A stretch of DNA of 64,000 bases from Antedon mediterranea (taxonomy: Eukaryota > Animalia > Echinodermata): positions 21,213,045-21,277,044 of the forward strand of contig NC_092680.1 of NCBI RefSeq assembly GCF_964355755.1. The letters are read 5' to 3'. The notes under the pieces are model-generated. The model was not told where the DNA came from, did no database searches, and was given only the letters and a program-made list of their open reading frames with translations. Positions 13,065-56,859 of the stretch are shown here, piece by piece. Made by a program: the position numbers and the translations under genes. The first letter of the stretch is position 1, and each line of letters opens with the position of its first letter.

Positions 13065-15880
13065 TCAACCATCAGTTGATTTGAAATGGTCATCATCAAT
13101 TGTTGAATAGATGTGGCCTTCGTTACTTAGAAACTCCAAAGCATTTCTGAAACAAAATTAATACTTGTTATATAATATAATAGTAGTTTTTTTGGGGGTT
13201 TTTTTGGGTACTATTTTCACTTTTTATTAGAACAGCCAAGTGAACAAAAATTAATAATCTTGCAATATTTAAGTCATAATTAAATTAACAATGCAAACAA
13301 GAAAAAGCGTATTTCACTTACTTTATGGCGTCTTTGGACACGCCCTTCAACTGGCTACAGAGGGCGCTAATACTGATTCCGGACTGGTCGCCGACATGCG
13401 CATTGATTAACTGATGTACCTAAAATATACAAAAGAAGAAATTTGATGGTTTCTGATAATTATTTAAATATAAACTGAAAACAATTGAAAGAGAAGGCGA
13501 CTGATGTTTTGATAACAGTAAAGTTGTTACATGTCACAATATCAGATCAGAGAGGTCACTAGAGAACCAACTAGAGTAGTAAATACATTACCTGGCCTTG
13601 CACCCCAGTTAGACCATTATTATTAACTCCTCCTCCATTATAAGCCCCTCCTCCCTTCACTGGGGTAACCATCATACTGCTTGAATGTCCATTTGATACC
13701 TGAAATTAAAAATGCTCACACTAACATTCTATGTACTGGTGTTATCAGGTACTCCATCTATGGGAGTTGAATCCCATTGATAATGAAAACCCAGGTACTC
13801 ATTTACAGATTATATTTTACCCACAATGCAATGAAACAACGTAAAAATAAATGTATTAAATGCTCACACTTGTTGCCAACTTGCTAATTAGCATATGACA
13901 TTTGGTGACCTCTAACATGTGCATTGAAATCTCATTGAGGTCAACGACTGGTAAAATACTAAACACGCTTAAGATCCTTTTGTTGTTGAATACACGCACC
14001 GTGCCGGTCACTCTTACATACGTATTTTCCTTGTGTAACATAGTTGTGTTTTCTTCTCCTTCCTACAAGACATTACAAGCGTATGGAAACACATTAGGCC
14101 TCTGTCTACACTATCAAACTTTATGTTACAAAACCATGTGATGTGCCCATATATGGACATGATGATTTCATATCACTATCATATTTGGGCACATCACACT
14201 TGTCATACTAGTTTGATAGTGTAGACAGAGCTTAAATGACAAAGCAGTAATGGCAACTAGTTCAAATCCTGACCACAACAAACAATTATAGTACATTTTA
14301 ATTTAAAATATTTATATTATAATAGCACTAAATAAAAACTTTGTACTCTATCACCTTCTATCATGCCATTCAATTTTTGGCAACTTTTAATATCCCGAAA
14401 GCTCTGTCTACACTATCAAATTTGATGTGACAAAAAAATGTGATGTGGCCATGGACATGATGATGTCATATCACTACAAATATCCCTTAGCAACTCGGCT
14501 ATGTTAGAATAGCAATTATTTTGAGAAATAATGTGTTTTAAATCAATTTCTTTCACTAGTTACAGCTTGATCACTATACTGCACTCTGATACTCACTGCT
14601 GAGTCAATCCACTCCCTTATTTCCATGGTTGATGATGTCATATCATGTAGTTCATACAAAACACAGGTTGCCTGAACTTCAATTCTCCGAACTAAACCGA
14701 CAATTGTCACCTGAGAAAATACAACAATATTGTAAAAGCATCCAACAATAAACAATACATCTGTACAGAATGTCATGATTCAGTTTTTTATAAATTATGT
14801 CAATTAATAAGGCCCCATAAAAAGTTATTACTTTATTACCCCCACGCACATCACTTTTGGAAAGCCAGAGCCAGCCTGTATTTAGGGGAATCACCTGATA
14901 TAAGAAGCTAATTGAATTGCTAATAGTTCAATCAAATTGACCACAAACAATATTTACCTGATGGATTTGGACATCACCTATTTTAAATATGTCATCAAGT
15001 TGTTCAGCCATCTTAATTTGTGCAATAGTACATGGTATTAAGTGCTTTGGCTTTTCCTTGTCCTAAATAAAAAGTTTCAAATATTTTAATAATGAAATAA
15101 ATAACAAATAATATTATACTATAATATACCGGTAACCATAACTATTATAATTTTTGCTTTAAGGTTACATTAATTGTAAACATGGCAGTACACAACTGTA
15201 GGATAAACCCAATAATTTGTACCTTTTTTTGTGTACTTTGTGTGGCGTCAAATCCACCTGGCGAGTTGAAATATCCACCTGATTGGGTGCTTTGTCCAAA
15301 TCCTGTGTAGTATAAAAAAGTATAGGCCTAGTATTAGTAGGCTAATAGAATGTCTCGGGAAGAACAACAGATTAGCTAGCAACTAGTTAGCTAGTTAGTA
15401 GGGTCAGACCAGGCTATTTATTTTATTTATAATATTACATGTAGAAAATTAATTTTAATTTAGTTAAAATTTGAAAACTTGATAAATTATATATCACAAA
15501 AGTTTAGGCAAGGCAATTATTTTGTGGGATGTGTGGTACGTATCGGCCTAAATGCGCAGGACATATGAGTGGTGTCGGCCTAAAAGTCACTTCGTACCCG
15601 GGCCGAAACGTCCCTGATTCGTGTAGGCCTAGCTACTAGTCCTAGTAGTAGCCTACTCTATATAGAGAGGCCTAGGGGTAGGCTGAATAGCTAGGCTAGG
15701 CAAGGCTAGGCCTAGACTAAAGGCCTAGCTAGGCCCAGGCAGGGCTAGACTGGGCCTACATTTTACCTAGAATAGAAAGAAGGTAAGAATAAAAAACTGT
15801 ATATATAGAAAACAAAATCCTACTAAACCAAGAGATGTATCACAGAAATTCACAGACTTACCTGACTCGTTTCCCCACAT
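13065..15880 (-). CDS. RPA2: Replication protein A 32 kDa subunit, 8 coding exons
   Basis: Exons reconstructed with GT-AG boundaries and consistent phase: 15862-15880, 15223-15302, 14958-15062, 14597-14710, ~13868-14062, 13592-13699, 13322-13419, 13065-13146. Translation: [91 protein letters not shown]. This matches the RPA32 phospho-domain, OB fold and winged-helix C-terminus. Confidence 0.96.
14098..14232. mobile_element. MITE family A copy in RPA2 intron (a second partial copy at ~14400-14478)
   Basis: CTCTGTCTACACTATCAAAC..GTTTGATAGTGTAGACAGAGCT. Confidence 0.85.
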
Positions 15881-16649
15881 GTTGTTTCAGATGTTCAATT
15901 AGTTATGATATGTACGTCAAAACAATTCGCAATAATTTCGCGCGATTTTCCTCCGATCCTCTCTCTCTCCTTGTTGAGTTTAGTTGCCAAATGTTATAGT
16001 ATAATACACCCAATTTTGAAAAACAGAATGCGAACACCATCGTAAAAAAATTATCATTAGATTTATTTAAATTATGTTTATTATAGTTTATTTATTATAT
16101 TGGTTATTATTCTAACAATTACCACAAGATTTAATTGATATAAAGAACTTCTTCTTTTAATTTAATTAATTTAAATCTGGTAACTCTCTTCAGTCAACAT
16201 TTTTAATAACAAACATTTTGACCTGCTCTCTGACCTCGTTTACGTTTTTTCTTCTCATTTGAGCTATATATCCAATACCAAATTGGCGAGTAAATCATGT
16301 TTTACTTTAAATTAAATTTATACGCTCTTCCACAAGGTCAATTGTTAGTTATACATACAGACTATATTAAAACAATGATTTTGAACACGTAGGGCATTTC
16401 TTTGAATTCTTTCCTATTGTCGTTTTGTGGTAATTTACAGCTTTTTATATGTTTAACAAACGTACATAATCAATTGCGTCTGCATCATGCTAGACTACAA
16501 CTTCCGGTAGTGACGTAATCAGCATATTTTTGATAATAAAACTTTTTCACTAAGCTAGGGAATCTTCTGATATCAATATTCATTAGACCGTACTTTAGTT
16601 AGCCAATCAAAATAAACGTATAAACAATTTTGCGGCGATGTTGTTGAGG

Positions 16650-19100
16650 TAAAATATACTGTGTTTTACAATAACCAATTTGGTTAGAGTAAAACACAAT
16701 GATAAAGAATAGGAAACATTTAATAATATGATAAATGTCATTACATAGCAATTTATCACTGTGTTTTACTATAACCAATTTGGTTAGAGTAAAACACAAT
16801 GATATAGAATAGGCAACATTTAATAATATGATAAATGACATTTACATAGCAATTTAGCACTGTGTTTTACTATAAACAATTTGGTTAAAGTAAAGCAGAA
16901 TGATAAAGAATAGGAATTTAATAATATGATATATGACATTTACATAGCAATTTAGCACTGTGTTTTACTATAACCAATTTGGTTAGAGTAAAACACAATG
17001 ATAAAGAATAGGAAACATTTAATAATATGATATATGACATTCACATAGCAATTTAGCACTGTGTTTTACTATAACCAATTTGGTTAAAATAAAACACAAT
17101 GATAAAGAATAGGAAACATTTAATAACATGATAAATGACATTTACATAGCAATTTAGCACTGTGTTTTACTATAACCAATTTGGTTAGAGTAAAACACAA
17201 TGATAAAGAATAGGAAATATTTAATAATAATGATTATTTACATAGCAATTTAGCACTGTGTTTTACTATAACCAATTTGGTTATAGTAAAACACAATGAT
17301 ATAGAATAGGAAACATTTAATAATATGATAAATGACATTTACATAGCAATTTATCACTGTGTTTTACTATAACCAATTTGGTTAGAGTAAAACACAATGA
17401 TAAAGAATAGGAAACATTTAATAATAATGATTATTTACATAGCAATTTAGCACTGTGTTTTACTATAACCAATTTGGTTATAGTAAAACACAATGATAAA
17501 GAATAGGAAACATTTAATAATATGATATATGACATTCACATAGCAATTTGGCACTGTGTTTTACTATAACCAATTTGGTTAGAGTAAAACACAATGATAT
17601 AGAATAGGAAACATTTAATAATTTGATAAATGACATTTACATAGCAATTTAGCACTGTGTTTTACTATAACCAATTTGGTTAAAGTAAAACACAATGATA
17701 AAGAATAGGAAACACTTAATAATATGATAAATGACATTTACATAGCAATTTAGCACTGTGTTTTACTATAACCAATTTGGTTAAAGTAAAGCAGAATGAT
17801 AAAGAATAGGAATTTAATGATATGATATATGACATTTACATAGCAATTTAGCACTGTGTTTTACTATAACCAATTTGGTTAGAGTAAAACACAATGATAA
17901 AGAATAGGAAATATTTAATAATAATGATTATTTACATAGCAATTTAGCACTGTGTTTTACTATAACCAATTTGGTTATAGTAAAACACAATGATATAGAA
18001 TAGGAAACATTTAATAATATGATAAATGACGTTTACATAGCAATTTATCACTGTGTTTTACTATAACCAATTTGGTTATGGTAAAGCACAATGATATAGA
18101 ATAGGAAACATTTAATAATATGATAAATGACATTTACATAGCAATTTAGCACTGTGTTTTACTATAACCAATTTGGTTAAAGTAAAACATAATGATAAAG
18201 AATAGGAAACATTTAATAATATGATAAATGACATTTACATAGCAATTTATCACTGTGTTTTACTATAACCAATTTGGTTATGGTAAAGCACAATGATATA
18301 GAATAGGAAACATTTAATAATAATGATTATTTACATAGCAATTTAGCACCATGTTTTACTATAACCAATTTGGTTATGGTAAAGCACAATGATATAGAAT
18401 AGGAAACATTTAATATTATGATAAATGTCATTACATAGCAATTTAGCACTGTGTTTTACTATAACCAATTTGGTTAGAGTAAAACACAATGACAAAGAAT
18501 AGGAAACATTTAATAATAATGATTATTTACATAGCTAGCAATTTAGCACAATGTTTTACTATAACCAATTTGGTTATGGTAAAGCACAATGATATAGAAT
18601 AGGAAACATTTAATAATATGATAAATGTCATTACATAGCAATTTAGCACTGTGTTTTACTATAACCAATTTGGTTAGAGTAAAACACAATGATAAAGAAT
18701 AGGAAACATTTAATAACATGATAAATGACATTCACATAGAAATTTAGCACTGTGTTTTACTATAACCAATTTGATTAGAGTAAAGCACAATGATAAAGAA
18801 TATGAAACATTTAATAATATGATAAATGACATTTACATAGTAATTTATCACTGTGTTTTACTATAACCAATTTGGTTAGAGTAAAACATTTTAACTATGA
18901 TAAATGATATTTAGCACTGTGCTGGATACAGTAAAACACAAATTAAGAATAGGAAACATATAATAATATGATACATTTACATACAAATTTAGTATTGTGT
19001 TTTACTATAGCCAATTTGGTTACAGTAAAACACAATGATAATGAAACATTTATTATATGATATTATTTACATAGCAAAATATTATATTAAACATATCTTA
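16650..19100 (+). repeat. Tandem array of ~97-101-bp monomers (about 24 copies), left arm of the foldback element
   Basis: Monomer AATTTAGCACTGTGTTTTACTATAACCAATTTGGTTAGAGTAAAACACAATGATAAAGAATAGGAAACATTTAATAATATGATAAATGACATTTACATAGC recurs, e.g. TGTGTTTTAC at 16861, 16959, 17060 and 17161. Monomers degenerate toward the inner edge. Confidence 0.97.
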
Positions 19101-19125
19101 TTATCTAAACGTTATGAAAAGAATA

Positions 19126-20385
19126 GGATACATATAATGTAATAATATAATAAATACAAGTTACATAGTTTATCATTTTGATTTACAGAACCAATTTGGT
19201 GACACAGTTAAACACAGTGATAAAGAATAGATACTGTTTTAGGTTATATAACCCTAACCCTAGTTTGAAGCGACATACTAAATTCATCGCGAAAAAGTAC
19301 GTATCGTATTTAGAAACTTTTGAAATTTGTTAGATATGTTTAATAGGTTCTTACGTCTATAAAACAAACAAAAAATATAAATTTCACAAAAAATTCGTGA
19401 TTTTAATAATTTGCATTTCTAAAAATGTACACTTATGAAATACCATACATTTTCCAACACATTTTTACTTCATTGATGATTCCCAGAAATCAAAATAAAA
19501 CAAATTATGATATTTCTTTTACATTATAGATGTAAGAACCTATATTGAACATGTACCAAATTTCAAACGTTTTTTAAGACGATACGTATATTTTTATCGA
19601 TGAATTAAGTATGTGATCGCTTCAAACTAGGGTTAGGGTTAAATAACCTAACAGTTCCATTCTTTAACACTGTGTTTAACTTGTAACCAAATTGGTTTTA
19701 GTACAACACAATGATAAACTATGTACATTTTATTTTTCATATTACATTATAGGATACATATAATGTAATAATAATAAATACAAGTTACATAGTTTATCAT
19801 CTTGTTTTACAGAACCAATTTGGTTACACAGTTAAACACAATGATAAAGAATAGACACTGTTTTAGGTTATATAACTCTAACCTTAGTTTGAAGCGATCA
19901 CATACTTAATTCATCGCGAAAAAATACGTATCGTATTCAGAAACATTTGAAATTTGGTAAATATGTTCAATAGGTTCTTACGTCTATAAAACAAACAAAA
20001 AATAAAAGTTTCAAGACAAATTCGTGATTTTAATAATTTGCATTTCTAAACATTTACACTTATGAAAGACAATACATTTCCAACACATTTTTACTTCATT
20101 GATGATTCTCAGAAATCAAAATAAAACTATTAGGATATTTCTTTTGCATTTTAGATGTAAGAACCTATATTGAACATATCTACCAAATATCAAACGTTTT
20201 TCAAGACGATACGTATTTTTAGCGATGAATATTAAATATGTGATCGCTTCAAACTAGGGTTAGGGTTAAATAAACTAAAACAGTTCTATTCTTTATCACT
20301 CACTGTGTTTAACTTTTAACCAAAATGGTTATAGTAAAACACAATGATAAACTTATATGTCAATTTTATTTTTCATAACATAAAA
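19126..20385. repeat. Two tandem ~625-bp palindromic modules (plus a third partial inverted copy at ~20650-20960)
   Basis: AGGATACATATAATGTAATA starts at 19126 and 19751. Each module has ~200-bp inverted arms (AACCCTAACCCTAGTTTGAAGCGA ... TCGCTTCAAACTAGGGTTAGGGTT) around a central spacer. Confidence 0.9.
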
Positions 20386-21579
20386 TGTTTGATATTCTTT
20401 ATAATATTTAATATTATATTTTAGGCCTACTATTAATGACGTATAAATGCACACTACATCTGAAATAACTTTCTACTTCATTGGCGATTCTTACCAAAAA
20501 AAAAGAACTAATTTTGTTATGTATATAGAGCAACCTATTATAACATGTCTTGTATGATTTTTATCTCGTTTCAATGACATTTTATACTACAATTCAAATG
20601 AAAAAGCATCACAAAAAAATACGTCTGGTATTCAAAAAGTTTCTAAACTCGGTACACAGAAAAAAGGAAATATTGAAAATGTATGGTCTTTCATAAGTGT
20701 GAATTTTTAGAAATGCAAATAATGGAAATCATCGATTTGTCTTGAAATTTATAATTTGTTTTGTCTTATTGAACATATCTATACAAAATGTCAAACGTTT
20801 CTGAATACGATACGTTTTTTTTCTCGATGAATTTATAATGTCGCTTCAAACTAGAGGGTAGGGTAGTAACCTAACAAGTATCTATTCTTTATCACTATGT
20901 TTAACTGTGTAACCATATTGGTTCTAATAAAAAACAATGATAAACTATGTAAATTGTATGTTTCATATAATTACATTTTTTCAAAAAAAAAATTATTGGG
21001 AATGTCAAATTTCTTTTTCATGACATATATCTACAAATTTCAGAAGCTTTTGAGTACGAGTATTTTACGCGATGTTTTTTTATCCTCATTTTAATATTTT
21101 GGTAATGTAATTCACATAAAGTATTATATCCAAAAATTGTTTATTCTTGGGTAGAAATGAGGAAATAAATAGTATTCCTGTATAATATAATAATCAATAA
21201 TAAAGTATAAAAAAAAATGTTGTGTAAACGAACGTTTTTTACGCTTCGAATTTTCTGTTACATTATGTTTGGATTGAAGCTACAGATATTGAATCATGGA
21301 CCTATAAATTAGTAATTTATAGGTCCATGATTGAACATATCGTCACTCACCACACATTTTTTGTTTTGTATTTCGAAAGTATTTATTCTAAAGAACAATT
21401 GATGCAAACATCAACTGCGTATCTTATTTCATTAATTAATTATATTAATTATAATTTGGCGATTATTCGTCACACGAAGAGTCGAATATCGATTCGTCTC
21501 GTCATGAGAAGAAAACGTGCATTGCGCACACTGTTTACGCGCCTCAACAATAAACGGCGAATATGCGATTCGTCACTTA

Positions 21580-22509
21580 TGGAACGCCGTTTTACACAAG
21601 TTTTTGGCGATGATAAAAATTGCATCGATGATGAAATTGCGTCGATGAAAATTGCATCGACGCAATGTAGATTGCGTCGATGCAATGTAGATTGCGTCGA
21701 CGCAATTTACATTGCGTCGATGAAAATTGCATCGATGAAAATTGCGTCGATGAAAATTGCGTCGATGAAAACTGCATCGATGAAAATTGCGTCGATGAAA
21801 ACTGCATCGATGAAAATTGATGTGATGAATTTAATTGATTATGAAAATTCCAAATGGTTTTAATTCAATCAATGATGAAAATGACTACTAGTAAAGTAAA
21901 TGATGATGTTAATAATGATGTTAATAATGTTATTATGTTGCTAAAAATTGACGGTTTCTGAATATTTTGATATGATAAACATGTTTACCGCTTGCGCTAG
22001 CGCGCGTTATAGACAAGCGCACAGTGATCGCGCACTAAAACAATGTTGAAATATATGCACTGATTAACATTTTAGTGATTTATTGTCAACACATTTTAGC
22101 AATGGATCCATTATTGTCCTTTCGGACACATTATATCTTCTAGCTAATTGCTTCCGTTAATCCACCAGTTCAGTACATAAAATCCAGATGTCCAGCATCC
22201 ATGACATCATATTCAAATCATACCGGCAGGGAGATCGCAATTTTCATCGATGAAAACTGCATCGATGAAAATTATTTTTTTTTTCATCGATGCAGTTTTC
22301 ATCGATGCAGTTTTCATCGACGCAATTTTCATCGACGCAATTTTCATCACATTAACGCAATTTTCATTACATCGACGCAATTTTCATCGACGCAATGTTC
22401 ATCACATCATTACATCAATACTATATTCATCGACGCAATTTTCATCACATCGACGCAATTTTCATTGCATCATCGACGCGATTTTATCATCGCCTAAACT
22501 GGCATTCCA
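21580..22509. mobile_element. Nested ~930-bp foldback/MITE whose arms are built from 15-bp ATCGATGAAAATTGC repeats
   Basis: Tandem 15-mers at ~21620-21825 and inverted copies at ~22238-22490. Outer ends are TGGAACGCC..GGCGATGATAAAA and TTTTATCATCGCC..GGCATTCCA, bounded by TA on both sides. Confidence 0.7.
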
Positions 22510-22859
22510 TACTAATTGCGTGTGATCTGATTGGTGTATTATAAATAAATTCATCGCGATGAATTTTTCAGTAGATGTAATGAGACAGTTCAGTAGATGT
22601 AATGACAGTTAATTTAATTGTTCTGCTCTTTTTGTACAAATCTATACTACTTTATATTATGGATTTTGTAGTACTGTTAAAATTATCAAATCTCTGGAAG
22701 TGTGTTTTACGAGTATGTCCGCAAATTTATGCGTTTACGGTTTTAAATAGCGAACATGATCTTGTTAGGTGCACTACGCACGCAGTACTCCAAAATGTCT
22801 TACTAATTGGGAGAAAATCATATTGTATCATATCATATTATATCCATTTTTTAAATTCA

Positions 22860-24860
22860 TATTCTTTATCCAAAACTAAATTGGTATAGTAAAACACAGT
22901 GCTAGCAATTTATCATATTATTAAATGTTTCATATTCTTTATCATTGTGTTTTACTCTAATCAAATTGGTATAGTAAAACACAGTGCTAAATTGCTATGT
23001 GAATGTCATTTATCATATTTTTAAATGTTTCCTATTCTTTATCATTGTGCTTTACCATAACCAAATTGGTTATAGTAAAACACAGTGCTAAATTGCTATG
23101 TAAATGTTATATATCATATTATTAAATTCCTATTCTTTATCATTGTGTTTTACTCTAACCAAATTGGTTATAGTAAAACACAGTGATAAATTGCTATGTA
23201 AATGTAATTTATCATATTATTAAATGTTTCCTATTCTTTATCATTGTGTTTTACTCTAACCATTTTGGTTATAGTAAAACACAGTGATAAATTGCTATGT
23301 AAATGTAATTTATCATGTTATTAAATGTTTCCTATTCTTTATCGTTGAGTTTTACTCTAATCAAATTGGTTATAGTAAAACACAGTGCTAAATTGCTATG
23401 TAAATGTTATATATCATATTATTAAATGTTTCCTATTCTTTATCATTGTGTTTTACTCTAATCTGATTGGTTATAGTAAAACACAGTGCTAAATTGCTAT
23501 GTGAATGTCATTTATCATGTTATTAAATGTTTCCTATTCTTTATCATTGTGCTTTACTCTAACCAAATTGGTTATAGTAAAACACAGTGCTAAATTGCTA
23601 AATGTCATTTATCATGTTATTAAATGTTTCTTATTCTTTATCATTGTGTTTTACTCTAACCAAATTGGTTATAGTAAAACACAGTGCTAAATTGCTATGT
23701 AAATGTCATTTATCATGTTATTAAATGTTTCTTATTCTTTATCATTGTGTTTTACTCTAACCAAATTGGTTATAGTAAAACACAGTGATAAATTGCTATG
23801 TAAATGTAATTTATCATATTATTAAATGTTTCCTATTCTTTATCATTGTGTTTTACTCTAACCAAATTGGTTATAGTAAAACACAGTCATAAATTGCTAT
23901 GTAAATGTTATATATCATATTATTAAATGTTTCCTATTCTTTATCGTTGTGTTTTACTCTAATCAAATTGGTTATAGTAAAACACAGTGCTAAATTGCTA
24001 TGTAAATGTTATATATCATATTATTAAATGTTTCCTATTCTTTATCATTGTGTTTTACTCTAATCTGATTGGTTATAGTAAAACACAGTGCTAAATTGCT
24101 ATGTGAATGTCATTTATCATGTTATTAAATTAATGTTTCCTATTCTTTATCATTGTGCTTTACTCTAACCAAATTGGTTATAGTAAAACACAGTGCTAAA
24201 TTGCTAAATGTCATTTATCATGTTATTAAATGTTTCTTATTCTTTATCATTGTGTTTTACTCTAACCAAATTGGTTATAGTAAAACACAGTGATAAATTG
24301 CTATGTAAATGTAATTTATCATATTATTAAATGTTTCCTATTCTTTATCATTGTGTTTTACTCTAACCAAATTGGTTATAGTAAAACACAGTGATAAATT
24401 GCTATGTAAATGTTATATATCATATTATTAAATGTTTCCTATTCTTTATCGTTGTGTTTTACTCTAATCAAATTGGTTATAGTAAAACACAGTGCTAAAT
24501 TGCTATGTGAATGTCATTTATCATGTTATTAAATGTTTCCTATTCTTTATCATTGTGCTTTACTCTAACCAAATTGGTTATAGTAAAACACAGTGCTAAA
24601 TTGCTAAATGTCATTTATCATGTTATTAAATGTTTCTTATTCTTTATCATTGTGTTTTACTCTAACCAAATTTGTTATAGTAAAACACAGTGCTAAATTG
24701 CTATGTAAATGTAATTTATCATATTATTAAATGTTTCCTATTCTTTATCATTGTGTTTTACTCTAACCAAATTGGTTATAATTTATTTAATTTCATTTCA
24801 AAAGACATTTACCTAAATTGCTATTTAATTATAGTAAAACACTGTGCTAAATTGCTATTG
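22860..24860 (-). repeat. Inverted tandem array of the same ~100-bp monomer (about 20 copies), right arm of the foldback element
   Basis: Reverse complement of the 16650-19100 monomer (TTTATCATTGTGTTTTACTCTAACCAAATTGGTTATAGTAAAACACAGTGCTAAATTGCTATGTAAATG...). Confidence 0.97.
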
Positions 24861-25502
24861 TATTAAGGACGAGTTCCGAGAAGATGTATTCAAAGCTACA
24901 ACCAATCAGAACAGTGTTAATCAATATAGTCCATGGCTACAGCCAATCAGAAACGTCCAAATCGCAATAACCCCTAGGCTAATAGAAATTATTGGTCCGA
25001 GTAGCCTTTTCAACCAGACGTTGCGAGGTTTAAAAAGTAAAACATGATTTACTCGCCAGTTTGGTATAGTTTATATACCTGCTCATTTCGGATCGTACGT
25101 ATACTCTGTAAATAAATAATATCACTTTATACGATAATTAATTGCTATTAGTCGATTGTTGTATATATTGCACAGAAATCTAAGCGTATTAATTGAAAGG
25201 TAAGACATTTAATAGAGAGATCATTTAGCTAGGCCTAGCCCCCCGTACGTAGCCAGCCTAACAAGTTGAAGAAATATTGCGATCAGCAAATGAGATCATT
25301 TCTGACGACTTATCGCTGCATGCCTGGTCGTTTGGTCCATGTTAATTTTTTTGCGTTTAACCTAAATAAATGTAAACTTTGTTTGGTTGAACCATTTTTG
25401 AGTTTGATTTAGGTTCGGGCATGGAGAGCCTCAATCATAAAACTTGCAGTAGCCTAGTTTTATGAAGTATGATTATTTTCCCTTTTCCAGGTAGTTGCAT
25501 TC

Positions 25503-26874
25503 ATGATGATGTCACCAGGCAAATTTCTCTGTAGAACATTGCCACTTGTAAGAAATGTTATAAAAAGAAGTTGTTACAAGGAAGGCATCACAGCAATTAA
25601 TCTAACTGAGGTGACTTCAAGTCAACAAATTCAGCACTCGGAGTTGAACGCGCCAAAGGACAGTTTTAGACCACCATTGTATATTGAGAGTACCCAAAGA
25701 GTGACACTTCAGGGCCTAGGTGGAGGAAGTATTGAGAGTGACTTAAATAATGAGACAGGAATTGCAACAATCACCATTAGCAACACAAAGAATGCAAATG
25801 CACTATCAGGTAAAAAATAGATTAAATTTAATTAATAAATTAAAATATTAATATATTGATATAAATCTGGTTTTATGTTTCAAATGTTGGTATGTTTGAC
25901 CTACCAAATGATAAATTTAATTTTAAAAGCTAAGGTTTTACTTCAATTTATGATAAAGTGGACGCATTCAAATGGAGTTTACAATTATATGTCAGATTAT
26001 ACGCATGCTTAGAGAGTGATTTGGAAGATGAAAACAAGAATATGCATGCGTATTAGCTGGCGCTTTCGATTTACACAAACAAATTCGCCTAGTGGAAAAC
26101 CGGCTTAAAGTAAATATACACTGAATATACTACCCTCAATTTGAGTAATAATTGAATTAAAACATGTTGTTTTTTTTTTTAGGATCTATGATGGTAGAAC
26201 TCGCAGATGTTATTTCTGAGCTTGAAAATTGGAAGAAAGGTAAAGCTGTTATACTTGTGGGCAACCCAAATGGAAACAATTTCAGTGCTGGAGCTGACCT
26301 GACATCAATGAAAGAATTGAAAACACCTCAAGCAGGTACCATGATGTGTTTATTCATGCAGAACACTTTACTGCGGCTGCAACAACTTCCGTTGATAAGC
26401 GTTGCAGCCATTGATGGAAGAGCTATGGGTGGCGGTGCAGAGATCACGACGTCATGTGACTTTCGAATTATGACGGAAGGATCCGTCATACAATTTGTGC
26501 ACAGAAAGCTTGGTCTGTCTCCCGGATGGGGTGGGGGCGCTAGACTTGTCCACATTGTCGGACACAGAGAAGCATTAAAAATGTTATGTAGTTCTGATCC
26601 AGTGGACGCTGAAACTGCTCTGAAAGTTGGCTTATCTGATGGAACTTTACCAGAAACCAAAGATCTAATTAAGGGAACAGCTGATTGGCTAGCTCCTTTT
26701 ATTAGTGCCCCATACCAGCTTGTTCAAGCAATAAAAAAAGTTGTTTTAGCTGGTTCGGAACTTCCTCTTGATAAAGCTATGAAAAAAGAAAAAGATATTT
26801 TCACAGGTCTGTGGGCAGCAGACTTGCAACTGGAGATAATGGAACGCTACATGAAACAAAAGCGTTTTAAATAA
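25503..26874 (+). CDS. ECHDC1: Ethylmalonyl-CoA decarboxylase (crotonase/enoyl-CoA hydratase fold), 2 coding exons
   Basis: Exons 25503-25809 and 26183-26874 join in frame (NALSG|SMMVEL). Motifs GGGSIE, ELENWKKGK, FSAGADL, CLFMQNTL, AMGGGAEITTSCDFRIM and PGWGGG match ECHDC1. Candidate upstream non-coding exon with donor AAG|GTAAGA at 25200 and acceptor at 25490. AATAAA at ~26883. Confidence 0.92.
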
Positions 26875-29196: not shown

Positions 29197-31182
29197 TTAA
29201 AATACTTGTATTCTCTTATTCTTCGAGTCACAGACAACTATGTTACCGCCTCTTGTCATGACAACACCCATTGGGTAGTCAAGCCTTCCATTTTCTGCAC
29301 CTTTAGAGCCAAATGATGTTATAAATTTCCCCGCCCTATCAATAACTTGTAGCCGATGGTTTCCAGCGTCAACCACAATCAGAAACGAATCATCAACGGC
29401 TACTCCAGTTGGTTCTCTCAGCTGACCTAGGTTCACGCCTTCAGAACCTATTGAGCAAAAGAATTTCCCAGATTGTTCAAACACCATGATACAATGTTTT
29501 AGAAGATCGGTAACGATAAGTTTGTCGTGGAATGTTGTCAGACCAGATGGGTATTTGAATTGTCCATCTCCCCAGCCGTGATGTCCAATCTGTCGGATGT
29601 AGATACCTTGTCGATCAAGCACTTTGATACAATAATGATCTGGATCACAAACATAAATGTTACCTCTTTCATCACAATCTATACCAGTTGATTTATAATT
29701 AAAGCTTTGAGATCGTTTAGGGCGACATATTGCAAGTTGATCTAACGGTGTTCCTGCTGAATTGTACACCTGGATGAACAAAGTGGCATCAACGACTAAA
29801 ATTTGACCCATTGCATTTGTACAGATTCCTTTTGGATACATTAGCTGTCCTTTCTTCATACCCTTTTTTCCAAACATCAATAGATGTTGGCCCGCCGGGT
29901 TAAAAACATGGACACAATGATTTTCACTGTCAACTACAAAATATTTTCCTTGAGCCACGGCCACATCGTAAGGAACTCCTAAAACTCCAACTCCAAAGAC
30001 TTTACTCGGTTCACCTTTATTCTTAAGCACTGTTTCTCTTTGTTTCATTTGTATTGTCTGTTTTAGTTCAATGTTAAATAAATTAAATATTGTTGATCTG
30101 GGAGTGATGTCTTTCTGAGACCCATCAACGTTGTTACCAGAGTCTCGTCGTTCCCTGGGTTTTGGTGTTGGATTTCGCTGTCGTTCATTTGCTGGTATTG
30201 ACGAATAAGGTGAAGATGGTAAAGAAGAAGATAGAGAATTTCGACGACGTCTTTCGGATTCATTCGCAACACCATTTCTTGCAGAGGCTATTTCAAGATA
30301 TCTGTCTGTACTATGGGACACGACAACAGAACTGGGTCGTTTTGGCTTAGCTTGTACGAGTGGCGGATTGTTGTTGTCAGCCTTTGAAGATGCAGGTCTT
30401 CGTATATCAACTGATTTGGAATGACCAACTTGAACTTTTCCAAAGAAACTTTGGGCAGACGACAACTGCTCTCTACCACATTCCACGTAGACAATCTTTT
30501 TAATTTCAGAACTCAATCTGCTCTGTATTTCGGCCATTGATTTACTGAAATCTGTGCACGTTTTAAGAAGATCAACTAATTGTGTCTCTTCAACTTTTAC
30601 ATTAGGAATTTCTTTGCTGAATTCTTCAATTTTGGAAATCTTCTCGCGGTATGTCGCTTGCTTTCCTTTAAGAGTTTCAATTTCAACTTTGACATGGCTA
30701 TCAATCTGCGCCCACAAGTCCTTTTGTCTCTGCTTCAATTCGTCTCCAATCTGTTTAAAACTTTTCTGGATTTCACTTTTTGCAAGTTCGGCTCTACTGT
30801 TCAATTGTCTCCTCTGACGCTCCATGTTCCAGAAAGCATCGACCTGCTCTTTCAGTTCGCTTGTTCTTTTCTCTAAACATTTCTTGAGATCGTTGTTTCC
30901 TTGTTGTTCTCTGGCTACAGACTGTGACTTCATTTCCACCAAGCTAGTGATGGTGACATTACTTGGTAACCCCTTTGAACCTTCTGAGGACAAAGAATGA
31001 AGCGTACGGCATTCGGGACATTTCAAACGAAGCGGTTTCTTGTCACCTTCTAGTTGCTGTAGACACGTTAAACAAAAGGTATGATAACAAGGTAAGCCTT
31101 TAGGTAGATGGTATCCTTCGTCGTATTGCTCAAAACATAGAGAACACTCCAAGAGTACGGCTATGTCACTTTCTCCAGACAT
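29197..31182 (-). CDS. RING-HC + coiled-coil + NHL-repeat protein (TRIM-NHL-like E3 ligase), single coding exon, 661 aa
   Basis: N-terminal C3HC4 RING (CSLC..LPCYHTFCLTC..CPEC), a helical coiled-coil, a Ser-rich linker and about six NHL repeats (P.GVAVD..G.I.V.D..NHRIQVF). Acceptor 7 nt upstream of the ATG (31190-31191) and candidate 5' UTR donors at 31754 and 32302. Confidence 0.9.
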   Translation of the reverse strand: MSGESDIAVLLECSLCFEQYDEGYHLPKGLPCYHTFCLTCLQQLEGDKKPLRLKCPECRTLHSLSSEGSKGLPSNVTITSLVEMKSQSVAREQQGNNDLKKCLEKRTSELKEQVDAFWNMERQRRQLNSRAELAKSEIQKSFKQIGDELKQRQKDLWAQIDSHVKVEIETLKGKQATYREKISKIEEFSKEIPNVKVEETQLVDLLKTCTDFSKSMAEIQSRLSSEIKKIVYVECGREQLSSAQSFFGKVQVGHSKSVDIRRPASSKADNNNPPLVQAKPKRPSSVVVSHSTDRYLEIASARNGVANESERRRRNSLSSSLPSSPYSSIPANERQRNPTPKPRERRDSGNNVDGSQKDITPRSTIFNLFNIELKQTIQMKQRETVLKNKGEPSKVFGVGVLGVPYDVAVAQGKYFVVDSENHCVHVFNPAGQHLLMFGKKGMKKGQLMYPKGICTNAMGQILVVDATLFIQVYNSAGTPLDQLAICRPKRSQSFNYKSTGIDCDERGNIYVCDPDHYCIKVLDRQGIYIRQIGHHGWGDGQFKYPSGLTTFHDKLIVTDLLKHCIMVFEQSGKFFCSIGSEGVNLGQLREPTGVAVDDSFLIVVDAGNHRLQVIDRAGKFITSFGSKGAENGRLDYPMGVVMTRGGNIVVCDSKNKRIQVF

Positions 31183-31422
31183 CGTTTATCTACGCATAAA
31201 TATACAATACAAAATGTTATTGACGAGCAATCTAGTCATATAAGTTCAGGTATGTCGCGGACTAAGTAAGTAAGTATGTAAGTATTCATTGAAGATATTG
31301 AAGAATTTTAGCCCTCTTATTATAATTATGATGATAAAAAAAAACTTTAAAATTAAAAATTTCCCTCACCAAACTTTGGTTATTTTGTTCCAATAGTGAA
31401 ATGAAAAATAATTTAGCTCAGT

Positions 31423-32675: not shown

Positions 32676-34492
32676 ATGCAGAACGAAGCCGGAGAATACG
32701 TGGATTTGTACACTCCAAGAAAGTGGTAAGGAGGCGCAGAAGCACGATGAATGTGTGTAAGCCCGGCCTCGGTCGGCATGGCCATGTTGGATGGCACTAG
32801 CGGGAGGATTTGTCCTAGGCCTAGGGACGATTTATTTGGCCGAGGAACGTTTAGGAGCTCTGCTTTTTTCAATGCAATTATAAATAAGCCTGATTCAATA
32901 ATATTAATATGAAGTTTATAAATAATCCTACTTAATTTAAATAAATTTAAATTAGTGTACCCGCCACGCATATTTATTATTATTTAGACAGTAATTTGTT
33001 TAATGAAATGATGAAAGGTCTTTGACTCTGGAAAAGTAAATCAAACCTCAATGTTTCCTTTCACAATGCAACACGCGGCCACGCACATATCGATTGCTAC
33101 ATAGCCTAAAAGTGAGATGTTTCAGCCTGCCTGACCCTAGCTAGCCTACCTTAATAACTATTAGGCCTAGTACTAGGCTATAGTTTACAATTAACTTTAT
33201 TCTGCACTTGGTAGATTGCAAAATATTTGATACACACCGATTTTGATTGCTTATTAATTTTGTTTTTTCAGTTCCACCAGCAACAGAATAATATCAGCCA
33301 AGGACCATGCCTCAGTACAGATAAACATTGCAGAGGTGAGTTCACAATTATTAGACAATTTATTGATATAGAAAAAGTCATGATAATTAACAATTAAAGT
33401 AACATTACATTGCAAAATGACAATCAAACAGATATATAAAATGTGTAGATGCATGCCAGCTGTAGCAATAAAAAGTCATAACAGTTAATGTAAAAAAAAT
33501 TATATCTTCTTTTAAATCATGTAAGTAATATTATTTTGAATTCATAGATAGATTATTATGTGAATGATCTACAACATTACTGTGCCATTCTTATGTTTTG
33601 TTGTTTTGTGTACAGGTTGATCCAACTACTGGGATGTACACTGGTACGTTTAAGACCTACGCTTTATGTGGCGCCATCAGAAGAATGGTAAGATGTACAT
33701 CTAACGTGATCCTTTTATATCTGCTCCAAATATTAAATTATATAACTATTTTTATTTTCTAATCTAAAGCTTTCTCTACACATTAAACTTTATCAAACTA
33801 TCAAACTAATTTGACAAAAAAAAGTGTGATGTGCCCAAATATGGTAGTAATACATAACCTGTTATAGTCAAGAGAAAATAAAGTTTTTGAAAAATATATA
33901 TTTTGATTGTGTATATCAAATAAATAATGATTTTATGATTTATTTACAGGGTGAATCGGATGATTCATTGGTTAGACTGTCGAAGGAAGACAACATAATT
34001 GCCACGTAAATACTACAGTTATATTTGTACAGTTATATTTGTAACTCAAATTGCAAATCAAATTCTTTTATCCTTTCTCTCTTCATCACTGTTTTGAAGC
34101 AAACAAAAACTTGTTTCCCAAACCGCTAAATAATCTTTGATTTTTGCAATAGTTTGAGATATTCCTAATTTTGAACCTACAATTTTTTTATTTATATCTT
34201 GTTTTCATATCTTTATTCCTAGTAAGTCACATATGATAAACACAAACCCTATTCATTAAACGTCTCACAAATAGTAACGTCAATCCTGAAGTGCTGTCTA
34301 CACTATCAAACTTTATGTGACAAAAAAAGTGATGTGCCCATATATGGACATGATAATGTCATATCATTACCATATTTGGGCACATCACACTTTGTTTGAT
34401 AGTGTAAACAGAGCTTTACATTGGTCTGATCTCCTGTTAACATAAAATGTACTAAAGTCTTCTTTTTGTTTTTTTTTCACAGTAATTATTAA
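32676..34492 (+). CDS. RPS21: 40S ribosomal protein S21 (eS21), 5 coding exons, 83 aa
   Basis: Exons 32676-32725, 33272-33335, 33616-33687, 33950-34005, 34483-34492 translate to [89 protein letters not shown] at ~34607. Confidence 0.98.
34291..34415. mobile_element. MITE family A copy in RPS21 intron (another partial copy at ~33769-33850)
   Basis: CTGTCTACACTATCAAAC..GTTTGATAGTGTAAACAGAGCT. Confidence 0.85.
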
Positions 34493-52851: not shown

Positions 52852-55800
52852 TCATTTTGAGAGTTGAGTCTTGGCTTTCTTAACTTGGCACAACCATTTT
52901 ATGACTTTAGCATTGCGTGTAATTATTGATGAAGTGTTATCTGGAATCTTCTTTAACTTTTTGGTTAGTCCACTTTCACTGACTCGACTTCCTTCTGACA
53001 TGACATCCGAGTCGGCATCTACATGATCATCATTTATTGCTGCCATATACATTGTGTGAAAGACATCATCAAGTTCATGTGGAGACTGTGCAGTAAACAA
53101 CACGTTATCATCAAGACCCATTTGATCAAAAAACGTGTCCAACTCTGTCAGTGAGCTATGGCGCGATGGGGTAGCAACCTGCGGTGTGCTTACGTCCGAA
53201 GACGAGCCCCAAGAGTTTCTTCGCATCAAATGTTGTTTCCGTTTTAAAGAATTATGATTGCTTCCAGTATCGGGTTTTTCTTCAACAGATTTTAGATCAA
53301 GAAATTGAGGTTTTTCTTTCCTTTTTCCACTATTTCTTTTTTCTAGTAATTCCTTTGAGTTGCGTCTGACTCTCATGGCAGATTGTTCATCATGTCTCAT
53401 AACAGATATCATCGTAGCTTCTACAACGCTTTCAGTCGACAAAACCTGAACATTATCTTCTACAAAAACGGAATCTGGACTGTTGTTCTTACTTGAGGTA
53501 GGCTTGTTAGTGGACATCTCACGACTCAGATCTGATGTTCCAATACTATGAGAAACAACACCAGAACTATGACATTTGTTTTTGGTACTACTACCCATAC
53601 TTGGCGAAGTGGAATGTTTGGGTGAAGGTGGATTGTTGGAAGAGTTTAACTTGGATAACACCTCGTGTACTTCATCTATACTTGCTTGTCTTGTTTTAAG
53701 TTCATTTTTCTCAGCCTCTATGTTACGTTGCGTGCTCTGAGTGGTATGCTGCGGTTGACTATAACGACTTGGACAAACAACTTTAACTTCATCAGAAAGT
53801 TCTGTTTTAAATACATCACAATTATTATTACCTTCAGCAGGTTTTCGGTAAGATTTAACACCTTCAGTTCTAATAATCAGCAATTCTTTAGCGGTGGGTT
53901 TATTATCCACATTCTTAGTGTTACAAAATTGCACATTAGTAGAAGTATCTTTCCTATATACATTTTCTTGTTTTTCTGCCTCTGTATTTGAAATTGTCTT
54001 GCATTGTTGTTTATTAACAAGTTTTTGCTTATTTTCCTTCAATGCTTTTTTGTATAAATCCTTAGAATCCTTTTCTCTCCGTCGCTCTCTGGAAACATGA
54101 TCGTTCCAACTATTAACACGTTTCACAACAGGTCGAAAGAAACGATCCATTTTAATATCTTGTTCGTAGTCAGTCTGGCTAAGAGAACTATAAGATGTTT
54201 TATGTTGAGGACAGGTTGGCCTAGAAACTTGAATAGTTGAGGCACTATCCTGGCCAGTAGGTGTGATTTGTTTTATCCTTCCTTCCTGATCTAAACTTGT
54301 AACAACATTACCACAATCTGATACCAGTAAATTTCTATCTGTTGGCTTACTATTCACTGTTGAATATTCATGAGCTTGAACTCTCCAATCATTTTCTTTC
54401 TCAGTAAAACATGCAGGATTTGATTCACTTCTTGTGGGAGGAGCTACACTAGCGTATTGCTTGGTCGGGTTTCCTGTCAAATCAGCATCCAATGGTAATG
54501 AATATTCATATGGCTTATGTCTCAGACTAAAAGCTAATGGTTTCATGGATGACTTACTTTTGCTTGCTTGACTTACTCCAGATAATGAATATTCATTAAA
54601 AACTTTTGAAGGCAGAAAATGTGATTGGTACTGGTATTCATTACCTTCTTGTCCTTTCATGGTTTTTAATTCTGCAGGTTTTAAACCGTAATTAAACTTC
54701 GGCTCATTAGCCTCCAGCACTTGACCCGTAGTTGACCTTAATATCTTCCAATTGATATCATTTGTACATCCATCAACATCACCTGGTTTGACAGTTGTTT
54801 TGAGTTCACTTGAAGTTATTGACCTATGAGACGTAAATTGATTATCACTTATAAGTTCAACTGATGTTGCATCTCCTACACTAGTTTCGTGCCTGAAATC
54901 TTTTATCTGTTTACCATTTTCCAAATTCTCATGTGAGATGCCAGAGCGAATACTGGAAGAAGTTGACAAAGTGGAAGACTTCCTTCTCGGTTGAAATCTG
55001 ACTGGTTTATACTGTTTGGTGAATTTTGATTTTTGTGTTACTAAATATTCTTTGGCATTGCTAGAATGCATGCCATAGTGATCATCCAGTGACTTCTCAT
55101 TCACCTTAGCATATACCTGATATTTTTCTTTTTCTCTATGTGATGATAATGTATCATTGCCATGTTTTGTAATGGTACAATCTACATTCATGTCCTTGAT
55201 ATTAGTAGAGGGCATAATACTTGGTTTTGTACCAGTTCTTCCAAATTCATCAGATTTGATTTGTATCACTTCGTTATTTTTTCTTGAATTAAATCCTGTT
55301 TTCATTACATTTTTATGTTGTATTCTTTTTAATACATTTTCGTTCAGAGGTTTTTTGAGGATTATAGGTTTCTTCGGCTTTTCTGGAATCTTAGGTTTTG
55401 TTGAAGTATTTGATGGATTGTAAATCTCAACAGTTTCTGGTGATTTTCTCTGGTGTCGTGCGTTGCTAGTTTGAACGCCAAGTTTCACAGAAGAAGATGA
55501 TTCTTGCTTGATTGACTTCCTTGGAAAATCTCCAGAATATGGACTATGTTGTGATACTATACTATTGTCATCTTTGATAGGTCTAACAATATATGGAGAT
55601 GCATCAGGATGTAACCAGGTGTTTGCATCAGGTGCAGATCTCTGTCTTACATGTTTCTTAACAAAACCACTAGAAACCTGAGATGGTTTATTTAATATTT
55701 CAGGTTTTTTATCGATTGTTTTATCAGATGGAAAATAATGAAAGCTATGACTTGCTACCATCTTCCGTTCGCCCTCATTCTTTGATTGAGTGCTAACTCC

Positions 55801-56859
55801 GAGTCGTTCGGCAACACTTAACTTTGACGTTGTTTCTACATTGGAATGTGTAAGATCTATTGACAGTGCCTTGACAGCATTGTGATCATTCTTTGCCAGC
55901 CTGTTCTTAGCGCTACTTAATACAGAGTTACCAATACCACTTTGATCAGATTTCAACGTTATTTTATCATGATGTTGTATAGTGCGATTTGAGGTACTGC
56001 TTTTGCTCGTTGGGAATAAAGGCTTCGCTTCAATTACTCTTCTATGCCTCTCGTGGTTCATAGCTTCTAATGAATTATTATTTTCTTGAGTACTAACATA
56101 GTCTTTCAACTGTATATGATATCCAGGTTCTTTTTTTCTTTGCGTTCCTGTGATGTTGGTTTCTTTGTGGTTCTCCTTACCTTGGACAATCTTCAATGAG
56201 TATCCAAGTGGTTTAGGTGGTGTCGGAGGTTTCTTTGGGCTGCTTGGCTTCACATGGTGGCTCTTTTCAATGTTGCTACCTGTTTCTGCACTTATACGCT
56301 GGTCATATTTAATTGCACTTGGTTTATTGGTTAAATTTTCGTCGGAGTTTGAAAAAAACGTAATCCTGTTCAAAACTCTTCCGGATGGAATGTTATTTAA
56401 ATTATCGTTGCATTTGTCCTTTTGGATTTCATTATCCGAGTCATCTGAAGAGAAAGTTGTTATAACAAGTCGTGATTCCACGTGAGGACGTTCAACACTT
56501 CTTGCTCGATGCATCTTCTCTCTTTGTTGTTGTTGTCTTCGGCTTCTCTGTCTAGATTCAATCAAACCAATATCATCCTGAACCTTGTTACTTTGTGAAT
56601 CTCGTACTGGTACGGTTTTACTTCCAAGACTTTTCTTATTCTTGTTAAAATATTCTACTCTGTTGTGACTCATATTCAAACTATTTTCATTCTCACCACC
56701 CCGTGCAAAAATGGTATGATCTCCTCTACCTTGAAACAGTTGCTCAGCTGCGGTTCGTTTCCGCGGTTGGCTTGAAGTATTCCGACGGAAAAAATTTGGA
56801 CTTTTATTCACCACTTGAAGAGGAGTCTTTCTCTTGACTGTGTCATCGTCGAAAGCCAT
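52852..56859 (-). CDS. FAM110: FAM110-family protein, 1335 aa, single coding exon
   Basis: N-terminal TPLQVVNKSPNFFRR..KRTAAEQL resembles the FAM110 PLRILNKGPDYFRR/SAVERL motif. C-terminal ELDTFFDQMGLD..SIITRNAKVIKWLCQVKKA resembles LERFFNYCGLD..SIIERNARIIKWL. The middle is low-complexity and S/K/N-rich. Acceptor at 57021 and 5' UTR donor at 58609. Confidence 0.82.
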   Translation of the reverse strand: MAFDDDTVKRKTPLQVVNKSPNFFRRNTSSQPRKRTAAEQLFQGRGDHTIFARGGENENSLNMSHNRVEYFNKNKKSLGSKTVPVRDSQSNKVQDDIGLIESRQRSRRQQQQREKMHRARSVERPHVESRLVITTFSSDDSDNEIQKDKCNDNLNNIPSGRVLNRITFFSNSDENLTNKPSAIKYDQRISAETGSNIEKSHHVKPSSPKKPPTPPKPLGYSLKIVQGKENHKETNITGTQRKKEPGYHIQLKDYVSTQENNNSLEAMNHERHRRVIEAKPLFPTSKSSTSNRTIQHHDKITLKSDQSGIGNSVLSSAKNRLAKNDHNAVKALSIDLTHSNVETTSKLSVAERLGVSTQSKNEGERKMVASHSFHYFPSDKTIDKKPEILNKPSQVSSGFVKKHVRQRSAPDANTWLHPDASPYIVRPIKDDNSIVSQHSPYSGDFPRKSIKQESSSSVKLGVQTSNARHQRKSPETVEIYNPSNTSTKPKIPEKPKKPIILKKPLNENVLKRIQHKNVMKTGFNSRKNNEVIQIKSDEFGRTGTKPSIMPSTNIKDMNVDCTITKHGNDTLSSHREKEKYQVYAKVNEKSLDDHYGMHSSNAKEYLVTQKSKFTKQYKPVRFQPRRKSSTLSTSSSIRSGISHENLENGKQIKDFRHETSVGDATSVELISDNQFTSHRSITSSELKTTVKPGDVDGCTNDINWKILRSTTGQVLEANEPKFNYGLKPAELKTMKGQEGNEYQYQSHFLPSKVFNEYSLSGVSQASKSKSSMKPLAFSLRHKPYEYSLPLDADLTGNPTKQYASVAPPTRSESNPACFTEKENDWRVQAHEYSTVNSKPTDRNLLVSDCGNVVTSLDQEGRIKQITPTGQDSASTIQVSRPTCPQHKTSYSSLSQTDYEQDIKMDRFFRPVVKRVNSWNDHVSRERRREKDSKDLYKKALKENKQKLVNKQQCKTISNTEAEKQENVYRKDTSTNVQFCNTKNVDNKPTAKELLIIRTEGVKSYRKPAEGNNNCDVFKTELSDEVKVVCPSRYSQPQHTTQSTQRNIEAEKNELKTRQASIDEVHEVLSKLNSSNNPPSPKHSTSPSMGSSTKNKCHSSGVVSHSIGTSDLSREMSTNKPTSSKNNSPDSVFVEDNVQVLSTESVVEATMISVMRHDEQSAMRVRRNSKELLEKRNSGKRKEKPQFLDLKSVEEKPDTGSNHNSLKRKQHLMRRNSWGSSSDVSTPQVATPSRHSSLTELDTFFDQMGLDDNVLFTAQSPHELDDVFHTMYMAAINDDHVDADSDVMSEGSRVSESGLTKKLKKIPDNTSSIITRNAKVIKWLCQVKKAKTQLSK

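What the first reader, a model, noticed from the sequence alone, without database searches (positions are those of the whole stretch)
15880..25500. The foldback element splits a compact RPA2-ECHDC1 bidirectional promoter
Seen: the RPA2 ATG (15880, minus) is ~380 bp left of the element. The candidate ECHDC1 first-exon donor (25200, plus) is ~115 bp right of it. Removing the element puts both 5' ends within about 0.5 kb, like the other two head-to-head pairs in this window. Inference: an essential replication gene and its partner have been pushed 8.8 kb apart by satellite-rich, cruciform-prone DNA, yet both ORFs are intact. ECHDC1 would be cut off from most of the ancestral promoter.
Basis: partly seen in the sequence, partly recalled or inferred. 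Interest (0 to 1): 0.72.

Follow-up and report, generated by a model that had tools for sequence, protein, structure and literature searches.

The report
Satellite transposon splits head-to-head gene pair
An 8.8-kb gene-less, repeat-filled insertion with jumping-element ends sits in the short gap between two back-to-back genes of a feather star, likely on only one chromosome copy and likely recently arrived, which would explain why both genes are intact; it is a new example of a known kind of element, and its effect on either gene is untested.

Summary
An 8,821-bp non-coding foldback element (16261-25081; 48-bp terminal inverted repeats, 7-bp target duplication, opposed 101-bp satellite arms) lies 380 bp from the RPA2 ATG and 118 bp from the ECHDC1 exon-1 donor. 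Both reading frames equal RefSeq Antedon mediterranea proteins. A spliced RNA contig of a related organism supports the non-coding exon 1, starting about 30 bp from the element. Contig breaks in the best-matching sample fit only a filled-plus-empty model, so the insertion is likely heterozygous and recent; the empty allele puts ATG and donor 491 bp apart. The gene pair also looks adjacent in Anneissia and Patiria. The ends are multicopy and shared with a second organism. The implied paradox therefore dissolves: RPA2 keeps its E2F-like site and an empty allele likely remains. Closest kinds: Galileo, Tetris, Rehavkus; start-site targeting is known for P and Mu. A shared promoter and any expression effect are untested. 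Open lead: both ends carry CCAAT/ETS/CRE motifs that may act as outward promoters. This scan earlier noted two other satellite-filled foldbacks at gene starts in this genome (unchecked).

The parts
13065..15880 (-). RPA2 (RPA32) coding region, 8 exons, 266 aa, open
   Evidence: exon model; identical to P0053; PDB RPA32 hit
15936..15943 (+). E2F-like motif upstream of RPA2, outside the element (motif name recalled)
   Evidence: 26 of 2000 shuffles reach it; no change listed at 15910-15949 in organism B DNA
16254..16260 (+). left copy of the 7-bp target-site duplication CTCATTT
   Evidence: left-flank contigs of X1 and X2 end at 16260
16261..25081 (.). non-autonomous foldback-type DNA transposon, 8,821 bp, 27% GC
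   Evidence: ends fixed by other copies; no transposase family at cut-off in 86 of 86 frames scanned
16261..16308 (+). left terminal inverted repeat (42 of 48 bases match the right one; first base differs)
   Evidence: other copies start at 16261 (X1 loose end) or 16260 (X7 record 29, one chance base)
16309..16657 (.). unique left subterminal region with ETS-like (16500-16507), CRE-like (16511-16518) and CCAAT (16601-16609) motifs
   Evidence: 14, 47 and 55 of 2000 shuffles reach them; motifs chosen after seeing them
16658..18888 (+). left satellite arm, 22.4 copies of a 101-bp unit with an internal hairpin
19123..20977 (.). two whole and one partial ~650-bp imperfect palindromes whose ends resemble the 101-bp unit
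   Evidence: self-BLAST (88% between the two whole units); 78% paired when folded
21600..22499 (.). inner 900-bp module with opposed 15-bp repeat arrays; no flanking direct repeat of 4 bp or more found
22908..24780 (-). right satellite arm, 18.7 copies of the same unit in opposite orientation
24781..25033 (.). unique right subterminal region with two CCAAT boxes (24900, 24941) facing ECHDC1
   Evidence: 1 of 2000 shuffles of 24860-25033 reaches two
25034..25081 (-). right terminal inverted repeat
   Evidence: X5 record 9 and X1 record 1 stop at 25081
25082..25088 (+). right copy of the 7-bp target-site duplication
   Evidence: X1 record 2 aligns from 25082
25112..25199 (+). ECHDC1 non-coding exon 1 (5' bound estimated from contig length, assuming no indels or further exon)
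   Evidence: X7 record 26: 27-nt match ending 25188, 86 letters before 25489; consensus donor at 25200
25491..26874 (+). ECHDC1 exons 2-3, ATG 25503, 332 aa, open
   Evidence: intron 2 spliced in X7

Best explanation
This is a gene-less, satellite-filled foldback element with transposon ends and a 7-bp target duplication that was likely pasted recently, by an enzyme made elsewhere, into the short gap between RPA2 and ECHDC1, likely on one chromosome copy only. Shown: the ends, the target duplication, the arms, many similar ends in two organisms, intact frames, a spliced ECHDC1 exon 1 close to the right end. Inferred: (1) a cut-and-paste transposase acting in trans, most likely P-like as in Galileo (about 0.45; Mutator-type about 0.3; hAT about 0.15; other 0.1); (2) the landing place reflects the known pull of such enzymes to transcription starts; (3) the satellite arms would serve as extra transposase-binding arrays; (4) RPA2 would be little affected because its 380-bp upstream part and E2F-like site stay in place, while the filled ECHDC1 allele would be lowered or driven from the element's end; (5) the empty allele would cover any loss, so no compensation is needed.
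For: Exact 7-bp direct repeat abutting both ends and 42/48 terminal inverted repeat. Other copies stop at the same ends. End contigs are far deeper than flanks: 431 against 5.9 in X1, 2665 against about 200 in X6 (the tool warns depth is no copy number). Empty allele: neighbouring contigs overlap by 30 nt; the left-flank contig ends exactly at 16260 in X1 and X2 (predicted beforehand), and X1 record 2 aligns from 25082 with 23 letters left over. Of 3 simulated genotypes only filled-plus-empty gives both features. Pair linkage: RPA2 and ECHDC1 share a contig and lie 4-9 accession numbers apart in Antedon, Anneissia and Patiria. Literature: a 9,021-bp coding-free Galileo copy with ~140-bp tandem repeats and 7-bp TSDs as the rule (PMC4168063, passages); THAP sites in the tandem repeats (PMC3688188, abstract); P and Mu peak within 50 bp of starts (PMC7337890, passages).
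Against: The 23 letters were not printed, and no listed contig spans the empty site with 31 letters on both sides, so the empty allele is an inference from contig geometry. In the simulation the empty unitig breaks again after 25082, whereas record 2 runs to 25270, which needs the filled right junction to be missing or cleaned from X1. Allele depths in three nearby bubbles are near 2:1, not 1:1 (28.8/15.9, 4.5/2.0, 4.8/2.7). Organism B was laid only to about 16115, so its state at the site is unknown. No transposase is linked to these ends; the ends are unequal at base 1; the target does not match Galileo's GTANTAC. Similarity of the terminal repeat to the satellite unit was not significant (190 and 90 of 1000 shuffles). 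Acanthaster has both genes on one 4.57-Mb scaffold but about 2000 accession numbers apart. Most Mu insertions in promoters have little effect (PMC7337890), so step 4 may be wrong.
Confidence: 0.8

Rival explanations
1. The element is a promoter-carrying plug: each end holds its own outward-reading promoter module, so both genes keep near-normal output on the filled allele and such insertions are tolerated.
For: Two CCAAT boxes in 174 bp of the right end (1 of 2000 shuffles) and ETS-, CRE- and CCAAT-like motifs in the left end (14, 47, 55 of 2000), none of these three in the native flanks. Maize Mu gives outward transcripts in 20 of 33 alleles (bioRxiv 10.1101/2023.06.05.543741, abstract). Two other satellite-filled foldbacks at gene starts were noted in this genome (unchecked).
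Against: Motifs were picked after reading the sequence; the boxes sit about 170-210 bp above the estimated exon start, farther than the usual -60 to -100 (recalled); they may be the relic inward promoter of a lost transposase gene; some organism-B copies lack this stretch (table 5c); no RNA from the filled allele was seen.
Confidence: 0.2
2. The insertion is old and fixed, and the two promoters have been separated for good; the empty form would be a duplicated copy of the locus or an assembly-graph artefact.
For: Bubble depths near 2:1 could mean three copies; internal units are diverged (74-88%); family ends occur in a second organism.
Against: The homozygous-filled model ends the flank contig at 16288, not 16260, and leaves no unmatched letters; bubble arms add up to about the flank depth; this copy's ends have 0 differences from deep end contigs (71 nt in X1, 222 nt in X5); one RPA2 protein of this species among the 120 rows listed.
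Confidence: 0.1
3. The element lies inside a first exon or 5' intron rather than between two starts, or the two genes have separate core promoters that merely abut.
For: About 50 letters at the 5' end of the ECHDC1 RNA contig did not lay on the window; the RPA2 RNA contig stops at 15273; RPA2 has its own E2F-like motif about 320 bp from the site.
Against: The contig length fits an exon of about 88 nt ending at the donor, which would start downstream of the target duplication; the empty gap is under 0.5 kb; the pair looks adjacent in three echinoderms.
Confidence: 0.25

Closest known systems
Galileo (P superfamily, Drosophila), especially D. willistoni copy 112 (PMC4168063, passages; PMC3688188, abstract)
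   Same: About 9 kb, no coding part, long inverted arms with tandem repeats, 7-bp target duplication
   Different: Here true end-to-end repeats are only 48 bp, followed by unlike subterminal regions; no transposase remnant; target differs from GTANTAC; no sequence comparison was possible
Tetris (D. virilis; PMC4079207, passages) and Rehavkus/TfSat06 elements (Tribolium; PMC12581902, passages)
   Same: Foldback elements whose inverted ends carry satellite arrays, up to more than 11 kb, no coding middle
   Different: Tetris has 8-10-bp duplications and is assigned to Mutator; here 7 bp; unit 101 bp with its own hairpin
P and Mu insertions at transcription starts (PMC7337890, passages; PMC1592238, search listing only)
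   Same: Insertion within tens of bases of a likely start, segregating in a natural population
   Different: A much larger, satellite-filled insert in a head-to-head gap; expression effect unknown
Maize Mu outward-reading promoter (bioRxiv 10.1101/2023.06.05.543741, abstract)
   Same: Model for the lead that the ends could drive the flanking genes
   Different: Shown by RNA in maize; here only motifs

Membership tests
Foldback-type DNA transposon (structural class) | Long inverted arms built of tandem repeats around a non-coding middle | tested here: met
Foldback-type DNA transposon (structural class) | Terminal inverted repeats and target-site duplication | tested here: met
   42/48 repeat, exact 7-bp duplication
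Foldback-type DNA transposon (structural class) | Dispersed copies and an empty site | tested here: met
   other flanks at the same ends; empty site inferred from contig geometry
P superfamily / Galileo | 7-bp (or 8-bp) target duplication | tested here: met
   against PMC4168063 and PMC3698922 passages; one copy only
P superfamily / Galileo | THAP-DDE transposase in the element or in a partner with the same ends | tested here: inconclusive
   none in 86 of 86 frames of this copy; no genome to look for a partner
P superfamily / Galileo | Galileo target consensus GTANTAC | tested here: not met
   target is CTCATTT; excludes Galileo proper, not the superfamily
P superfamily / Galileo | Terminal 11 bases aligning with a classified family (Repbase rule, PMC4455052) | not testable with these tools
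   no repeat library is held
Mutator-type foldbacks (Tetris, Tm1, Rehavkus) | 8-10-bp target duplication | tested here: not met
   8- and 9-bp tests fail; Phantom elements with 7-12 bp are recalled only (paper not held)
Mutator-type foldbacks (Tetris, Tm1, Rehavkus) | MULE transposase in cis or in a partner | tested here: inconclusive
   none in this copy
hAT | 7-bp duplication occurs in some families; hAT transposase | tested here: inconclusive
   PMC4455052 mentions 7-bp-TSD hAT families; no transposase here
Sola1 | 4-bp AWWT duplication with the end at 25084 | tested here: not met
   fits the window alone, but two other copies stop at 25081
Bidirectional promoter | Two divergent starts less than 1 kb apart on the empty allele | tested here: inconclusive
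   ATG to donor 491 bp; ECHDC1 exon 1 supported; RPA2 5' end not seen
Bidirectional promoter | Shared elements drive both genes | not testable with these tools
   needs reporter or allele-specific data

The most novel reading that the evidence does not exclude
Feather-star genomes carry active giant satellite-filled foldback transposons that home in on head-to-head promoters and bring an outward promoter module at each end, replacing the lost half for both genes; this would move kilobases of satellite into housekeeping promoters at little cost and uncouple ancient co-regulated gene pairs in one step.
Probability: 0.15. Interest if true: 0.65.

Novelty: new member of a known kind. Interest (0 to 1): 0.36.

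Why it matters
The element type and its landing place have precedents, so the specialist surprise is modest. The value is as a natural experiment: if one animal carries both a filled and an empty allele with linked SNPs in the first introns, allele-specific RNA and chromatin data can test in one nucleus whether an old head-to-head pair shares a promoter, and whether 8.8 kb of satellite silences, spares or re-drives its neighbours. If the ends prove to be outward promoters across the family, it would show how satellites enter gene-dense DNA.

Tried and rejected
A 4-bp Sola-like reading of the ends was dropped when other copies stopped at 25081. Derivation of the satellite unit from the terminal repeat: not significant. 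Transposase remnant: none; weak HTH hits at E 0.06-0.09 and pentapeptide hits from the 15-bp repeats were rejected. Rfam: 0 matches in 15800-25600. Terminal-repeat pattern: 0 matches in metagenome and viral contigs. No whole genome is held, so copies could not be counted or paired with their targets. No RNA holder was listed on record; X5 covered only repeats and gave no gene cover, which is no evidence on expression. Organism B's state at the site and the RPA2 5' end were not covered. The bacterial promoter scan does not apply. Scan look-up by sequence: nothing. Searches for RPA2 plus ECHDC1 (3 unrelated papers), for foldback plus promoter plus divergently transcribed (1 paper, listing only), for bidirectional promoter plus transposon insertion (68 papers, 20 listed) and for Antedon plus transposable element (8 listed) showed no title on this locus or family. 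Yuan and Wessler 2011 and Marquez and Pritham 2010 were not held; no supplements were read.
Full report
Organism and genes. The last ECHDC1 exon is 81% identical to Anneissia japonica ethylmalonyl-CoA decarboxylase, its best named hit. Exon models built from splice signals give a 266-aa RPA2 and a 332-aa ECHDC1, letter-identical to proteins that RefSeq files under Antedon mediterranea, and 80% identical to the Anneissia proteins.

The element. GC drops to about 25% from 16 to 25 kb. Two arrays of a 101-bp unit, 16658-18888 and 22908-24780, face each other and make up 47% of the element. Between them lie ~650-bp imperfect palindromes and a 900-bp module with opposed 15-bp repeats. A 48-bp terminal inverted repeat matches at 42 positions. 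The window alone allows a 4-bp or a 7-bp target duplication. Two other copies stop at 25081 (X5 record 9, X1 record 1) and others start at 16261, so the element is 16261-25081, 8,821 bp, with a 7-bp duplication. No transposase family reached its cut-off in 86 of 86 frames of 28 aa or more from the non-satellite parts.

A dispersed family. End contigs are much deeper than flanks: 431 against 5.9 in X1 and 2665 against about 200 in X6, a second organism. The tool warns that depth is no copy number; I read it only as tens of copies. This copy's ends show 0 differences from those deep contigs over 71-222 nt, whereas an orthologous RPA2 intron differs at 18 of 160 positions between the two organisms. 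That fits a family that is still moving and whose ends are constrained (inference).

An empty allele. In one search, X1 record 2 (212 nt) aligned from exactly 25082 with 23 letters left over. Neighbouring contigs overlap by 30 nt, and 23 plus the 7-bp target is 30. I predicted that the left flank contig would end at 16260; it does, in X1 and X2. Of three simulated genotypes, homozygous filled ends that contig at 16288, homozygous empty lets it run on, and only filled-plus-empty ends it at 16260 and yields a 23-letter unmatched lead. Limits: the 23 letters were not printed; record 2 runs on past the point where a full graph would branch again; both runs are one sample, probably the window's source; bubble depths are near 2:1; a duplicated locus is not excluded. 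I put heterozygosity at about 0.85.

The gap. On the empty allele the RPA2 ATG and the end of ECHDC1 exon 1 are 491 bp apart. A spliced RNA contig of organism B carries a 27-nt match to 25162-25188 joined to exon 2 and has 86 letters before 25489. If colinear, exon 1 begins near 25112, about 30 bp from the element; about 50 of those letters did not lay, and contigs cannot show a start. The RPA2 contig stops at 15273, so its start is unseen. An E2F-like motif at 15936 (3 in the 64-kb window; 26 of 2000 shuffles) stays with RPA2 and is unchanged in organism B DNA. The pair seems old: same contig and accession numbers 4-9 apart in Antedon, Anneissia and Patiria; same scaffold but about 2000 apart in Acanthaster. 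Accession order is only a proxy for position and says nothing on orientation.

How it likely works. A transposase made elsewhere cut and pasted the element, leaving the 7-bp duplication. Galileo (P superfamily) makes 7-bp duplications and has a 9,021-bp coding-free copy with tandem repeats in its arms (PMC4168063, passages), where extra THAP sites lie (PMC3688188, abstract). Most other foldbacks are Mutator-type with 8-10 bp (PMC4079207 and PMC3169594, passages), some hAT families have 7 bp (PMC4455052, passage), and foldback shape does not imply kinship. The superfamily stays open, P-like being the best guess. P and Mu insertions peak within 50 bp of starts and most Mu promoter insertions have little effect (PMC7337890, passages), so the landing place is expected. 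RPA2 likely keeps its core promoter; the filled ECHDC1 allele likely loses its native upstream region; the empty allele likely masks any loss. None of the expression steps was tested.

The open lead. The right end holds two CCAAT boxes (1 of 2000 shuffles) and the left end ETS-, CRE- and CCAAT-like motifs (14, 47, 55 of 2000); the native flanks hold none of these. The motif patterns are recalled and were chosen after the fact. Mu ends can act as outward promoters (bioRxiv 10.1101/2023.06.05.543741, abstract). Earlier notes of this scan describe two 19-kb satellite-filled foldbacks with other units at gene starts in the same genome; I could not check them, and they are leads, not support. They led me to the Tribolium Rehavkus paper (PMC12581902, passages), which shows that satellite-filled foldback ends are a described design.

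Verdict. Real and correctly placed; a new member of a known kind; the paradox is explained by a likely recent, heterozygous insertion. Interest 0.36, resting on the allele pair as a ready test of promoter sharing and on the end motifs.

Noticed in passing
window 25990-26106: A ~115-bp inverted-repeat element in ECHDC1 intron 2 with summed depth near 12,000 against 7 for the flanks in X1, present in all four runs laid: a very abundant MITE-like family.
   Followed up: no
window 22908-24780: The right arm shows higher-order duplication: 4 identical unit pairs 5-10 units apart, against 1 in the left arm and none between arms, so the arms grow separately.
   Followed up: partly
window 21600-22499: Inner 900-bp module with opposed 15-bp repeats, possibly a nested element; no flanking direct repeat found.
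   Followed up: partly
window 19123-20977: The ~650-bp palindromes carry paired telomere-like TTAGGG hexamers at both arms (seen; telomere motif recalled).
   Followed up: no
window 16266-16345: The element's left end has 0 differences over 80-86 nt between the two organisms, while an RPA2 intron differs at 18 of 160 positions.
   Followed up: partly
window 15302-15413 and 25241-25374: Allele bubbles in the best-matching sample have depth ratios near 2:1.
   Followed up: no
window 15303-15861, 25200-25490, 32730-33200: AGGCCT-rich stretches cluster by eye in first introns of RPA2, ECHDC1 and RPS21 (31 sites in the window); enrichment not tested.
   Followed up: no
P0054 (Anneissia RPA2): The Anneissia model is 378 aa, with about 112 extra N-terminal residues; possibly a gene-model extension into the promoter gap.
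   Followed up: no
window 9672, 11800, 14150, 14450, 27810, 60590: Copies of another short interspersed repeat seen by eye in introns and gaps.
   Followed up: no
window 52855-56871 (-) and 29200-31185 (-): A 1,339-aa single-exon frame with a FAM110 C-terminus and a 662-aa single-exon RING-NHL frame.
   Followed up: no
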